Assembly (NCBI GenBank): GCA_013239625.1
Contig: MU053810.1
Coordinates: 124,001-188,000 of the forward strand
Source of the DNA: Lama guanicoe
Taxonomy: Eukaryota
Direction of reading: 5' to 3'
Length of the DNA: 64,000 nucleotides
Part shown: piece after piece, positions 15,997-63,912 of the stretch
Numbering within the stretch: the first letter of the stretch is position 1
Layout of the letters: the number at the start of each line of letters is the position of its first letter
Position numbers and translations under genes: made by a program
The notes under the pieces: generated by a model
What the model was told of the DNA's origin: nothing
Seen by the model: only the letters and a program-made list of their open reading frames with translations
Databases searched by the model: none

Positions 15997-16836
15997 CAAT
16001 GAGATGTCACCTCACATCTGGTAGGAGAGCTATTATCAAAAAACAAAAGTTCACAAGAGTTTAGATGTGGAGAAGATGGAACGCTTTTATGTTGGTGGGA
16101 ACGCAACATGGTGCAGCCACAATGGAAACAGTATGGAGGTTCCTCCCAAAATTAAAAATGGAACTGCCACATGATCCAGGAATGCCTCTGTGGGACACAG
16201 TTCCAAAGGAAATGAAATCAGGACCTTGAAGAGATACACATGCTCCTGGGTTCACTGCGGCATTATTCACAATGGCCAAGATGTGAAAACAATGTGTGTC
16301 CGTTGACTGATACTTGCACAAAGGAATTATGCTGTATTTATACAATGAAATATTACTCAGCCTTAAAAAGGAAACCCTGCTATTTGCAACAACATGGATG
16401 AACCTGGAGGAGATTATGAAGTAAAATCAGCCAGACACAGAAAGGAAAAAAATACCTGATCTCAGTTATATGTGGACTCTAAAAAAGGTCAAATACATAG
16501 AAACAGGGAGCAGAACTGTGGTTACCAGGGGTGGGGAGGCCAGGGAACTGGGGAGGTGCTGGTCAAAGTGCAACAAGGTGTCGTTATGAAGGATATGAAT
16601 AAGTCAAGAGATCCAATGCACACATAACAAGTGACTATGGTTAATAATATTGGATTTAATACTGGAAATTTGCTAAGAAAGTAGATTTCAGGTATTCTCG
16701 TCATAAAAAATAGTAACCATGTAAGGAGAATACATGTAAATTAGCTTGAGCACAGTCATCATTTCACTGTGTAGATGGAGATCAAAGCATCATACTGTGC
16801 CTCTTAAATACACAGGGCTTTTATTTTTTTAAAAAA
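15997..16836 (+). mobile_element. Old L1 (L1MA-like) ORF2 3' end and 3' UTR, degenerate
   Basis: Typical L1 3' motifs: ggtgcagccacaatggaaacagtatggagg, tattactcagccttaaaaagg, atttgcaacaacatggatgaacctggagg, gctaagaaagtagattt. Confidence 0.85.
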
Positions 16837-16894
16837 TGGTGGTTGAGAAAGTACCAGCTGTGTTTGAACACGAAGCAGTGAATGACTTTAAAAA

Positions 16895-17140
16895 AAGGTG
16901 TCATTGTGCTAAGAAAACTTAACATGAGATCTAACTTCTTAACAAACTTTAAGTGTGACTACAGTATTGTTGCTTATGTACACAATGTGGTCAAGCAGAT
17001 CTCAAGAGCTTACCTATCTTACATAACTGAAACTTTACACCTGCTGTAACTCCCTACTTCCCTCTCTCTGCAGCCCTGGGCAACCACCACTTTACTCTCT
17101 GGTTCTAAGAATCTGACTATTTTAGAGACTTCTGGTATGT
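16895..17140 (-). mobile_element. Old L1 (L1MA-like) 3' UTR fragment, tail-to-tail with the preceding element
   Basis: Antisense L1 3' motifs: acttaacatgagatcta, cataactgaaactttacac, cagccctgggcaaccaccactttactctct. Confidence 0.75.
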
Positions 17141-17705
17141 GAAATGTGACTCTAAATGCCCGCAGATGGGCGCTGAGCTCGCCAGTCCACCGCACTACTC
17201 CCTAGTGCCTTATACCCAGCAGGTCACCCATTTACATCATCTGCTGCCTGGCCCTCCACAGCCTACGTTTGTGACTCTGAGTCAAGGGCCAAGGATGGAG
17301 GTCTGGAGAGGACAATTTTTTTTTGTCTTATACAAATGACTTGTTTAGATTTACTAAAGTATTTATTACTTCACATTCTTTTCAAGCCTTCGTACACTCA
17401 GTACTTTCATCTGAGAATCACCTTCCTCCTACCTAGGGTACATTTTTCAAAATTTCCTTTGGTGAAGACTTCCCAATTGCCTGTTTGAAGTGCCTGAATT
17501 TCCCCTTACCTTTTCCCCTGGGTGTAGAATTCTAGATTGTTTTTTCCTTGTATTTACATTCCAATGTCTTCTGGGTGTGACACCACTGAAGGTAAATCTC
17601 TCTTCCCTCTCTAGATAATTTTAAGATCTTTGTCTTTGATGTTCTGCTGCTTCACTGTAACAAAGCTAAGTGAGAATTTCCTTTTATTTAACCAGCTTGT
17701 GATTC

Positions 17706-18444
17706 TTTTTTTTAAAAACATTTTTTATTGATTTATAATAATTTCACAATGTTGTGTCAAATTCCAGTGTAGAGCACAATTTTGCAGTTATACATGAACA
17801 TATATATATTCATTGTCACATTTTTTTCTCTGTGAGCTACCATAAGATCTTGTATATATTTCCCTGTGCTATACAGTATAATCTTGTTTATCTGTTCTAC
17901 ATTTTGAAATCCCAGTCTATCCCTTCCCAACCCCTGCCCCCTTGGCAACCACAAGTTTGTCTTCTATGTCTATGAGTCTATTTCTCTTTTATATTTATGC
18001 TTTGTGTTTTTGTTTTTTTTTTTAATTCCACATATGCGTGATCTCATATGGTATTTTTCTTTCTCTTTCTGGCTTACTTCACTTAGAATGACATTCTCCA
18101 GGAGCATCCATGTTGCTGCAAATGGCATTACGTTGTCAGTTTTTATGGCTGAGTAGTATTCCATTGTATAAATGTACCACAGCTTCTTTCTCCAGTCATC
18201 TGTTGATGGACATTTAGGCTGTTTCCATGTCTTGGTTATTGTAAATAGTGCTGCTATGAACATTGGGGTGCAGGTGTCATTTTGAAGTAGGGTTCCTTCT
18301 GGATATATGCCCAGGAGTGGGATTCCTGGGTCATATGGTAAGTCTATTCCTAGTCTTTTGAGGAATCTCCACACTGTTTTCCACAGTGGCTGCACCAAAC
18401 TGCATTCCCACCAGCAGTGTAGGAGGGTTCCCTTTTCTCCACAG
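17706..18444 (-). mobile_element. Young 5'-truncated L1 (ORF2 C-terminus, 3' UTR, A-tail); part of a larger insertion 17321-18444
   Basis: Uninterrupted ORF2 C-terminal translation ([12 protein letters not shown]...[10 protein letters not shown]...YHMRSRICGI). AATAAA at 17729-17724; A-tail at 17713-17706. Confidence 0.95.
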
Positions 18445-18559
18445 TGGAGAGGACAGTTTTTAAGGAGAGGAGGGGACATTCAGCACTATGTTTGGTGCTG
18501 CTGGCTACAAGAGCTACGAGACCTGTGGGCCAGATCCCATAGCCCAGATGCCCAAGGCA

Positions 18560-28889: not shown

Positions 28890-30262
28890 ATGCATGAAAG
28901 GATGCTCAGCATCACTGGCCATAAGATAAATGCCAATCATCCATTGACATAGGACTGGATAAAGAAGTTGTGGTATATGTATACAATGGAATACTACTCA
29001 GCCATAAAAAAGAATGAAATCATGCCATTGGCAGAAACATGGATGGACCTAGAGATCATCATGTAAGTGAGGTAAGCCAGACAGAGAAAGCAAAATACCA
29101 TATGATATCACTCATATGTGGAATCTTAAAAAAAAAAATGAAGGAAAGAGGATACTAATGAAGTCATCTACAAAACAGAAACAGACTCACAAACATAGTA
29201 AACAGTCTTATGGTTACTGGGGAAAGGGGGTGGGAAGGGATAAATTTAGGAGTTTGAGATTTGCAAATGTTAACCACTATATATAAAAAAAGATTTAAAA
29301 AACCCCAAATTTCTTCTGTGTAGCACAGGGAACTACATTCAGTATCCTGTAATAACCTTTAATGAAAAAGAATATGAAAATGAATATACATATATATATG
29401 CATGACTGGGACATTGTGCTGTCCACCAGAAATTAACACATTATAACTGACTATACTTTAATTAAAAAAAAAATGTAGAGGGCCAAAAAGAAAAAAAAAG
29501 ATAAATGCCAATCAAACCCACAATGAGATACTGTTTCACACTAAGGACAGCCATTACCAAAAAATGGAAAAGAAGTGTTAGCAAGGATGTAGAGAAACTG
29601 GACCCCGGGCAGTCATTGTTGGGAATGTAAAATGGTGGCATTGCTTTGGAAAATGGTATGACAGGTCCTCAAGCAGTTAAACATAGAATTACTATATGAC
29701 CCAGCAATTCCCTTTCTGGATCTACACCCAAAAGCACTGAAAGCAGGACTCGAACAGATACTTGCACACCTGTGATCATCACAGCATTATTCACAAGAGC
29801 CAAAATGTAGAGCCAATCCAAGCGCCCATGGATGGATGAATGCATCAACAGAAGTTAGTCTACACACGCGATGGAATATAATTCAGCCTCAAAAAAAGGA
29901 TGGAATTCTGAACATGCTACAACATGGATGAACCTTGAGGACATTATGCTAAATGAAAAAAAAACAGGCAAAAAAGGACAGATACTTGATGATTCCACTT
30001 ATGTGAAACACTGAGAGAAGTCAAATGCATAGAGACAGAAAGCAGAATGGCGGTTACCAGGGACTGGGGGCAGGGGCTCGGGGAGAGTGTCGGATACGGA
30101 CAGGTTCCAGTTTGCGAAGATGAAGTTCTGGAGATGGCTGGTGCTGACGGTGTGGGTATGCTTGATGCCACGGAATTGTACTCTTAAAAATGGTTAAAAT
30201 GGTAAATTCTGTGTGCCAAGTTAAATGTGCATTTTGCTACAATTAAAAAAATAATAATAAAA
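28890..30262 (+). mobile_element. Old L1MB-like 3' end, interrupted by a younger L1
   Basis: gaaaggatgctcagcatcact...aatgccaatcaaacccacaatgagatac rejoins across the insertion. 3' UTR motifs gatgaagttctggagatgg and cttaaaaatggttaaaatggtaaatt; A-rich end near 30260. Confidence 0.85.
28940..29497 (+). mobile_element. Younger 5'-truncated L1 with a perfect 17-bp target-site duplication
   Basis: AAGATAAATGCCAATCA at 28923-28939 and 29498-29514. Body has caatggaatactactcagccataaaaaagaatgaa and an A-tail. Confidence 0.92.
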
Positions 30263-30296: not shown

Positions 30297-30455
<159 letters not shown>

Positions 30456-40304: not shown

Positions 40305-40409
40305 NNNNNNNNNNNNNNNNNNNNNNNNNNNNNNNNNNNNNNNNNNNNNNNNNNNNNNNNNNNNNNNNNNNNNNNNNNNNNNNNNNNNNNNNNNNNNNNN
40401 NNNNNNNNN
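40305..40409. other. Assembly gap (105 N)
   Basis: Run of N seen directly. Confidence 1.
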
Positions 40410-56504: not shown

Positions 56505-56698
56505 CAACAAGGACCTACTGTAGAGCACAGGGAATTATATGCAATTCCTTGTAATAACATTCAACAGAAAAGAATCTGAAAAGAAAAAATATATATATAT
56601 GTGTGTGTGTATGGTATATGTATAATTGAATTGCTCTGCTGTACACCTGAAACTAACATTGTAAATCAACTACACTTCAATAAAAAATGTAAAAAAAT
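56505..56698 (+). mobile_element. Short L1 3' UTR fragment (cetartiodactyl type)
   Basis: caacaaggacctactgtagagcacaggga...gctgtacacctgaaactaacattgtaaatcaactacacttcaataaaaaa. Confidence 0.85.
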
Positions 56699-62829: not shown

Positions 62830-63912
62830 ACGTACCGTATAGAAACTTGTACATAAATGTTCACAGAAAAATTATTCACAATAGCCAAATGTCCATCAGC
62901 TGATGGTTAGATGAACAATGGTACAGCCATATAATTCATACAAGGACAGTTATTCAGCCACTAAAAAGAGTGCAGTACCCCCAGTGTTCACAGCAGCACT
63001 ATTTACAATAACCAAGACATGGAAACAGCCTAAATGTCCATCAACAGATGACTGGAGAAAGAAGATGTGGTATATTTATACAATGGAATACTATTCAGCC
63101 ATAAAAATGACAACATAACGCCATTTGCAGCAACATGGATGCTCCTGGAGAATGTCATTCTAAGTGAAGTAAGCCAGAAAGAGAAAGAAAAATACCATAT
63201 GAGAGCACTCATATGCGGAATCTAAAAAAAAAAAAACAAAACCAGATCATAAATACAAAACAGAAACAGACTCATAGACATAGAATTCAAACTTGTGGTT
63301 GCCAGAGGGGAAGCGGGTGGGAAGGGACAGATTGGGAGTTTGAAATTTGTTACCAACAGGCATATGTAAAATAGATAAACAAGATTATACTGTATAGCAC
63401 AGGGAAATGAATACAAGATCTGTGGTAGCTCACAGCGAAAAAGAATGTGACACAATGAATATATGTATGTTCATGTATAACCGAAAAATTGTGCTCTATA
63501 CCAGAAATTGACACAACACTGTAAACTGACTATAACTCAAAAAAAAAAAAAACAGGAGTGCAGTACTGTTATACATGGCATAACCCTGCAAACACATACA
63601 AAACATTATGCTACGGGAAAGAAACTGGACACAAATGTCCGCATTTTGCATGATTCCACGTATATGAAATGCCCCAGAGAGGCAAATCTATAGAGATGTA
63701 GACTCGTGGTTGCCAAAAGCTGAGAGGAAGATGAAACAGGAAATGACCACTAATGGGTACAGAGTTTATTTGGGGGGTGATGAAACATTTGGGGGAGTTA
63801 CAGAGTGGTGATAATTGTACCGTCTTGTGGATGTACGAGAAACCATTGAACTGTATTCCTTAAAAGGGTGTATTTATGGTATGTGATTTATATCTCATTT
63901 ATTTTTAAAAAA
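62830..63912 (+). mobile_element. Old L1MC/ME-like 3' end, interrupted by a young L1
   Basis: acttgtacataaatgttcacag...tattcagccactaaaaagag|...|gagtgcagtactgttatacatgg...atgggtacagagtttatttggggggtgatgaaa. Confidence 0.8.
62979..63552 (+). mobile_element. Young 5'-truncated L1 with TSD, related to the copy at 17706-18444
   Basis: ORF2 C-terminal peptide FTAALFTITKTWKQPKCPSTDDWRKK; A-tail ending at 63552; GAGTGCAGTAC duplicated at 62968-62978 and 63556-63566. Confidence 0.93.

What the first reader, a model, noticed from the sequence alone, without database searches (positions are those of the whole stretch)
17304..18461. Apparent L1 3' transduction: about 380 bp of extra DNA carried into CAMK1D intron 6
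Seen: the L1's own AATAAA and A-tail end at 17706, but the duplication is not there. TGGAGAGGACA(A/G)TTTTT occurs at 17304-17320 and again at 18445-18461 (17 bp, one mismatch), directly at the L1 5' truncation point. The right copy continues TTTTT|AA, the L1 endonuclease consensus. A second T-run (17316-17324) and a second minus-strand AATAAA (17367-17362) bound the segment 17325-17705. Established: L1 read-through past its weak poly(A) signal mobilises flanking DNA. Inference: this segment came from another locus (it looks like ancient L1M/HAL1-type sequence) and tags the source element.
Basis: partly seen in the sequence, partly recalled or inferred. Interest (0 to 1): 0.7.

Follow-up and report, generated by a model that had tools for sequence, protein, structure and literature searches.

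The report
Old LINE-1 insertion carrying flanking DNA
A dead LINE-1 jumping-gene fragment landed in an intron of the CAMK1D gene millions of years ago and brought about 380 bases of DNA from another place in the genome with it; this is a clear but ordinary case of a well-known process.

Summary
A 17-bp target-site duplication (17304-17320 / 18445-18461, one mismatch; 2 hits, 0.09 expected) brackets a 5'-truncated L1 (17706-18443) plus a 381-bp segment (17325-17705). No duplication lies beside 17706. In 4 of 4 sequencing runs laid, one contig matches 17324-17680 at about 93% and then runs on for 513-1338 bases unlike the window. So a second copy of the segment exists, and its likeness stops exactly at the second A-tail. 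Depth fits about two copies, not a repeat family. This is what a partnered L1 3' transduction predicts. Divergence of 6.8% gives a rough age of 7-15 million years. Not shown: an L1 upstream of the second copy (its contig breaks at 17680) and an empty site in an outgroup. The remaining untemplated tail is only about 3 bases. One side detail: the target overhang is complementary (7 of 8) to the L1 sequence just upstream of the truncation point in a distant surrogate L1, a hint of twin priming that was never extended. Known mechanism, new instance, low interest.

The parts
17304..17320 (.). Target-site duplication, copy at the 3' (tail) end of the insert
   Evidence: 17 bp, 1 mismatch to 18445-18461
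17316..17324 (-). Second (new) A-tail remnant, 9 A: 5 within the TSD, 3 untemplated (17321-17323), 1 shared with the second copy (17324)
   Evidence: the second copy's alignment stops at 17324 in 4 of 4 runs
17325..17705 (-). Transduced segment, 381 bp, GC 0.365; by eye a decayed ancient L1 ORF1-end fragment (recalled, not confirmed by a tool)
   Evidence: Second copy 17324-17680 with 23-24 substitutions and 1 gap in 4 of 4 runs; no other copy in the window; GC; no Pfam or PDB hit
17362..17367 (-). AATAAA most likely used for the read-through transcript, 37-38 nt before its end
   Evidence: no difference listed at these positions in the second copy (table 3)
17683..17688 (-). Further AATAAA just downstream of the L1 tail, also read through
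   Evidence: lies beyond the end of the second copy's contig (17680), so its state there is unknown
17706..17729 (-). L1's own AATAAA (17729-17724) and internal first A-tail (ends 17706)
   Evidence: thousands of L1 contigs end at 17717-17722 in T-runs (table 7)
17706..18443 (-). 5'-truncated L1: ORF2 C-terminus (human ORF2p aa 1133-1269) plus lineage-specific 3' UTR
   Evidence: E 1.9e-58 to ORF2p in PDB; 87% to the copy at 62979-63547
18444..18444 (-). Single base between the L1 and the TSD; L1-derived or untemplated, unresolved
   Evidence: Differs from the base before the left TSD copy and from the surrogate L1 L001
18445..18461 (.). Target-site duplication, copy at the 5' end of the insert; ends in TTTTT followed by AA (endonuclease site). 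Its first 8 bases match the L1 sequence just upstream of the truncation point in inverted sense
   Evidence: 7 of 8 match to L001 sense positions 386-393, with the junction at 395

Best explanation
A partnered L1 3' transduction. A full-length L1 elsewhere in the genome was transcribed through its own poly(A) signal and a second one 35 nt further on. The RNA was cut and polyadenylated after a CA, 382 nt past the L1 tail and 37-38 nt after an AATAAA in the flank. L1 endonuclease nicked CAMK1D intronic DNA at TTTTT/AA. Reverse transcription ran from the new tail through the flank and 738 nt of L1, then stopped. A staggered second nick gave the 17-bp duplication. Both copies have since decayed neutrally. 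Shown: the anatomy, the second copy, its boundary, low copy number. Inferred: the RNA read-through, that the second copy is the parent locus (it could be a longer sibling transduction), that an L1 lay upstream of it, and the age.
For: TSD brackets L1 plus segment, and none lies beside 17706. Endonuclease site in the right orientation. Two A-tails in one insert, a pattern given for about 72% of partnered transductions in PMC13009371 (passage). In 4 of 4 runs one contig (869, 1694, 1694, 1694 nt) aligns 17324-17680 with 23-24 substitutions and 1 gap and runs on 513-1338 nt unlike the window. It does not extend into 17323-17316, so most of the T-run is not templated by it. Run X6 shows window-like pieces (17491-17680, 0 differences) beside that contig, so both copies are in one genome. 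The piece shared by both copies has 1.3, 2.4, 2.4 and 2.0 times single-copy depth, while the L1 tail is over 10,000-fold deeper. TSD mismatch of 1 in 17 agrees with 23/356 segment divergence (1.1 expected). A second L1 of the same lineage at 62979-63547 has an 11-bp direct repeat (62968 / 63556) right beside its tail, so this L1 normally ends there.
Against: An L1 upstream of the second copy was not seen: its contig ends at 17680, 25 nt short of the L1 tail, and the loose-end and piece tables were cut (363 and 21478 rows not shown). Only about 3 untemplated A remain. AATAAA lies 37-38 nt from the end, outside the 10-30 nt stated in PMC13009371. The nearer AGTAAA variant is absent from the second copy (17355 differs). 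No empty site was seen: 17150-17299 had no cover in 4 of 4 runs and no genome is held. In X1 the depth ratio was 1.3, not 2.
Confidence: 0.9

Rival explanations
1. RNA chimera: reverse transcription began on a separate polyadenylated RNA from the second locus and switched to, or was ligated to, an L1 RNA. The second locus never had an L1 upstream.
For: The L1 upstream of the second copy is not shown. L1 chimeras by template switch or ligation are known (PMC13174262, passages).
Against: In the passages seen, the partner RNA sits at the 5' end of the L1, not after its tail. Here the join falls exactly at the L1's complete poly(A) end, which read-through explains without an extra step. A parent locus without an L1 is common in dog transductions, because the parent L1 was polymorphic (3 of 27 had an adjacent L1; PMC13141329, passages), so absence there would not prove a chimera.
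Confidence: 0.04
3. Two separate events: the segment was already here (an ancient L1 relic), the young L1 inserted at 17706 and lost its own TSD, and the 17-bp repeat is chance.
For: The segment looks like an ancient repeat by eye (recalled). No outgroup was examined.
Against: Chance expectation 0.09 in the whole window, and the right copy sits 1 base from the truncation point. A resident relic would not have a 93% copy elsewhere that ends at the T-run.
Confidence: 0.02
4. The segment is the normal 3' end of an L1 subfamily or of a repeated half-L1 family, not a one-off capture.
Against: At 80% likeness, 17325-17650 is covered at about 11-35 depth units by one or two contigs per run, against over 200,000 for the L1 tail.
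Confidence: 0.01

Closest known systems
Partnered L1 3' transduction (Goodier 2000, Pickeral 2000: seen only in a reference list; PMC13009371: passages)
   Same: 5'-truncated L1, internal A-tail, downstream unique DNA in the same sense, second A-tail, one TSD around all, TTTT/AA site, second genomic copy of the tag. The 381-nt tag is within the modal lengths listed there (37-818 nt).
   Different: An old germline event (6.8% diverged) in a non-human mammal rather than a recent human one. The tail has shrunk to 9 A. AATAAA lies 37-38 nt from the end. The parent L1 is not shown.
Canine L1 3' transductions (PMC13141329: passages)
   Same: Same event type in another laurasiatherian mammal, traced by a second genomic copy of the tag.
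   Different: That study used dimorphic insertions, at least 95% identity and unmasked sequence. This tag (93%, probably old repeat-derived) would likely fall outside those filters.
Twin-primed 5'-inverted L1 (Ostertag and Kazazian 2001: seen only as cited in PMC2912911, PMC2837659 and PMC4245944, passages)
   Same: The top-strand overhang is complementary to the L1 RNA right next to where first-strand cDNA stops (7 of 8 in a surrogate L1). TSD length of 17 is in the 10-20 bp range given for inversions.
   Different: There is no inverted L1 segment at all; the match lies wholly inside the TSD.

Membership tests
Partnered L1 3' transduction | L1 3' end with its own poly(A) signal and A-tail inside the insert | tested here: met
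Partnered L1 3' transduction | One TSD brackets the L1 and the extra DNA; none beside the first tail | tested here: met
Partnered L1 3' transduction | L1 endonuclease site (TTTT/AA) at the tail end | tested here: met
   18457-18463
Partnered L1 3' transduction | Second, untemplated A-tail after the extra DNA | tested here: met
   Second copy stops matching at 17324 in 4 of 4 runs; only about 3 A lie outside TSD and template, so this is met weakly
Partnered L1 3' transduction | Poly(A) signal 10-30 nt before the second tail | tested here: inconclusive
   AATAAA at 37-38 nt, kept in both copies; AGTAAA at about 25 nt in the window only
Partnered L1 3' transduction | The extra DNA has a copy elsewhere in the genome that continues past the tail point | tested here: met
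   table 8, 4 of 4 runs, 513-1338 nt of unaligned continuation
Partnered L1 3' transduction | That copy lies directly downstream of an L1 | tested here: inconclusive
   Contig ends at 17680 where the two copies become identical; tables 7 and 8 were cut; metagenome scan for the tag found 0
Partnered L1 3' transduction | Empty orthologous site with one target copy | not testable with these tools
   No genome held; only near-identical runs listed; left flank without cover
Twin-primed 5'-inverted L1 | Inverted L1 segment between the TSD and the forward segment | tested here: not met
   Forward L1 begins 1 base after the TSD; no opposite-strand L1 piece there
Twin-primed 5'-inverted L1 | Top-strand overhang complementary to the RNA next to the break | tested here: inconclusive
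   7 of 8 in L001, a 70-74% identical surrogate; 2 of 1316 positions reach that score; the true source sequence was not obtained
Repeated half-L1 (HAL1-like) or 3'-extended L1 subfamily | Many genomic copies of the segment | tested here: not met
   About two copies at 80% likeness
Ancient L1M/HAL1 ORF1 relic (origin of the segment) | Detectable ORF1p homology | tested here: inconclusive
   0 Pfam hits in 3 of 3 frames, 0 PDB hits in 2 frames tried; resemblance across frameshifts is by eye and recalled

The most novel reading that the evidence does not exclude
The 5' end records 'aborted twin priming'. The top-strand overhang annealed by 8 nt to the L1 RNA, was never extended, and blocked first-strand synthesis exactly at its edge. 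If this is general, some plain 5' truncations without microhomology are zero-length inversions, and the TSD end should match the L1 just upstream of the break in inverted sense more often than chance. That can be tested now on existing human and mouse insertion sets. I did not see this described in the listings of two searches or in the passages read, which does not show that it is unpublished.
Probability: 0.15. Interest if true: 0.5.

Novelty: new member of a known kind. Interest (0 to 1): 0.2.

Why it matters
Little by itself. About 25% of human L1 insertions carry a 3' tag (PMC13009371, passage), about 15% of full-length human L1s and about 1.8% of mappable dimorphic dog L1s (PMC13141329, passages). 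The locus is a usable tag for an L1 that was active in this lineage roughly 7-15 million years ago, and a presence/absence marker for related species. It adds three sense-strand AATAAA to a CAMK1D intron, with no evidence of any effect. The only part with wider reach is the 5' junction hint, because how L1 truncation points are set is still open.

Tried and rejected
Whole-genome search for the donor: no genome held. Self-search of the window: no second copy of the segment. Metagenome scan with a 24-nt word shared by both copies: 0 hits. Viral-contig scan for the L1 junction word: 0. Metagenome scan for the same word: 1 hit, L001, a distant L1. Paper search for that word: 0. Supplements of PMC8605555 could not be read; a camelid repeat library there could give the true L1 sequence at the junction and the family name. 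ORF1 test of the segment: no Pfam or PDB hit; the third frame was not sent to PDB and the protein atlas gave no result, so the ORF1 label stays unconfirmed. Empty allele: no joint and no cover at 17150-17299 in 4 of 4 runs; this is probably the tool's filter on human-like contigs and is no evidence either way. Four rows with share 0.00 are small data sets (2-68 million letters) and were not used. I tried to read the donor's upstream L1 from depth at 17675-17699 and dropped it, because overlapping short contigs make it ambiguous. Literature: no listing on this locus or on camelid transductions (listings only); PMC8605555 mentions transduction once, in general terms. Earlier notes of this scan: none near this place, none by sequence, none for 'transduction' in this genome.

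Full report
Observation. The 17-mers at 17304-17320 and 18445-18461 differ at one base. The pattern occurs twice in the window at up to two mismatches, against 0.09 expected, and 0 of 100 shuffles reached two. The right copy ends in five T followed by AA, an L1 endonuclease site on the strand that fits a minus-strand insert. Between the copies, read on the minus strand, lie one unassigned base (18444), a truncated L1 (18443-17706), a 381-bp segment (17705-17325) and an A-run (17324-17316). The L1 part encodes the ORF2p C-terminus (aa 1133-1269 of human ORF2p, E 1.9e-58), followed by a 3' UTR that is 87% like another copy at 62979-63547. No TSD lies beside 17706; the best candidates are low-complexity 7-8-mers.

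Setting. The host gene is CAMK1D: one exon is identical to the human protein over 42 of 42 residues. Five exons were located on the minus strand, and the insert lies between those starting near 30371 and 11547, in the gene's sense. 'Intron 6' rests on recalled numbering.

The second copy. No genome was held, so I used public runs. Of 24 runs listed, 20 hold 0.77-0.94 of 120 sampled words of 16600-17760, from 5 coded organisms and 8 studies. A genome without the insert could hold at most 0.68, so the insert is probably present in all five; these rows are not independent. I laid 4 of the 24 runs (four organisms) on 17050-17790 at 80% likeness. In 4 of 4, one contig aligns to 17324-17680 with 23-24 substitutions and one gap, then continues for 513 (X1) or 1338 (X6, X7, X9) bases that do not fit the window. 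Twenty-two listed differences are common to all four runs, so this is one locus. Run X6 also shows window-like pieces, one with 0 differences over 17491-17680, so both copies are in one genome. The contig ends at 17680, 30 bases after its last difference (17650), which is where an assembly graph merges two identical copies. The merged piece has 1.3, 2.4, 2.4 and 2.0 times single-copy depth, while the L1 tail is more than 10,000-fold deeper. The segment is therefore a roughly two-copy sequence and not a family.

What the boundary shows. Likeness stops at 17324, the first A after a C on the transcript strand. Cleavage after CA is the usual mammalian preference (recalled). The second copy does not match the rest of the A-run, so it is not a sibling retrocopy with the same tail, unless that tail decayed. 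It does not match the window's left flank, so it is not a DNA duplication of this region. It is either the parent locus or a longer sibling. The AATAAA at 17367-17362 shows no difference in it. Against this reading: only three A lie outside both the TSD and the template; the signal is 37-38 nt from the end, where PMC13009371 gives 10-30 (passages); and the L1 expected upstream of the second copy was not seen, because the contig stops 25 nt short and tables 7 and 8 were cut (363 and 21478 rows not shown). The left flank 17150-17299 had no cover in any run, so an empty allele could not be tested.

Age. The copies differ at 23 of 356 sites (95% interval 4.1-9.5%; K2P 0.068). That gives 6.8 million years at 5e-9 per year (2.5e-8 per five-year generation, PMC8605555, passage) or 15.5 million at 2.2e-9 (recalled mammalian average). 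One mismatch in the TSD is what this divergence predicts (1.1 expected). Sixteen of the 22 listed differences are transitions. At 17374-17375 the window has CA and the other copy TG, which fits one CpG decaying independently in each.

Mechanism. The best reading (0.9) is a partnered 3' transduction: read-through of two AATAAA, polyadenylation 382 nt past the L1 tail, nicking at TTTTT/AA, reverse transcription through the flank and 738 nt of L1, truncation, and a 17-bp staggered second nick. The anatomy, second copy, boundary and copy number are shown. The RNA step, the parent L1 and the age are inferred. Rivals are an RNA chimera (0.04), a DNA repair patch (0.03), two separate events with a chance repeat (0.02) and a repeated family (0.01). 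As an internal control, the related L1 at 62979-63547 has an 11-bp direct repeat right beside its tail.

Origin of the segment. This is recalled, not shown: Pfam gave 0 hits in 3 of 3 frames and PDB 0 in the 2 frames sent.

The 5' junction. A metagenome scan returned one distant L1, L001 (70-74% identical), that spans the truncation point. The first 8 bases of the right TSD match L001's sense strand at 7 of 8 at positions 386-393, and the retained L1 begins at 395. The one mismatch would pair as G-T. So the top-strand overhang is complementary to the RNA just upstream of where the cDNA stops. Only 2 of 1316 positions in L001 reach that score; the chance is about 0.0004 at a fixed register and 0.002 allowing five registers. 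This is the geometry of twin priming as described in PMC2912911, PMC2837659 and PMC4245944 (passages), but with no inverted segment. [quoted passage not shown] The caveats are real: one locus, noticed after the fact, a surrogate sequence, and an unexplained base at 18444. It is a lead, not a result.

Comparison and verdict. The element meets five of eight tested features of a partnered 3' transduction; two are inconclusive and one was untestable. It is not a 5'-inverted L1. Such transductions are common in humans and documented in dogs (PMC13009371, PMC13141329; passages). Searches for camel, alpaca or CAMK1D with L1 terms listed nothing on this locus (listings only). PMC13174262, PMC10191854 and bioRxiv 2024.12.14.628481 were seen as passages. 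Supplements of PMC8605555 could not be read and might hold the camelid L1 consensus. Verdict: real, correctly interpreted, a new member of a known kind, interest 0.2.

Noticed in passing
window 18445-18452 against L001 (sense positions 386-393): The target overhang is complementary at 7 of 8 bases to the L1 sequence just upstream of the truncation point; possible aborted twin priming.
   Followed up: partly
window 17352-17520, run X6: Two window-like contigs at depth 5 and 3: one with 1 difference, one with 5 substitutions and 2 gaps in 169 nt, two of them (17397, 17480) shared with the second copy. Most likely two diverged alleles of this locus; a third copy or gene conversion is not excluded.
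   Followed up: partly
window 62979-63555: A second 5'-truncated L1 of the same lineage on the + strand, with an 11-bp direct repeat at 62968 and 63556 beside its tail; it seems to sit inside an older repeat.
   Followed up: partly
window 17683-17688, 17724-17729, 17362-17367: The insert is in the same sense as CAMK1D and brings three AATAAA into the intron; no RNA evidence was sought.
   Followed up: no
window 16066-16486, 28940-29476, 29683-29803, 56516-56697: Older L1 3' fragments, 68-70% like the insert's L1 part.
   Followed up: no
window 18030-18040: The ORF2 frame runs on past the position where the related copy at 63218-63224 has a stop; a one-base gap is seen there in the alignment.
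   Followed up: no
window 40305-40409: A run of 105 N (assembly gap) in a CAMK1D intron.
   Followed up: no
L001:1-1323: A mammalian L1 3' region inside a 3.4-kb metagenome contig, most likely host DNA in the sample.
   Followed up: no
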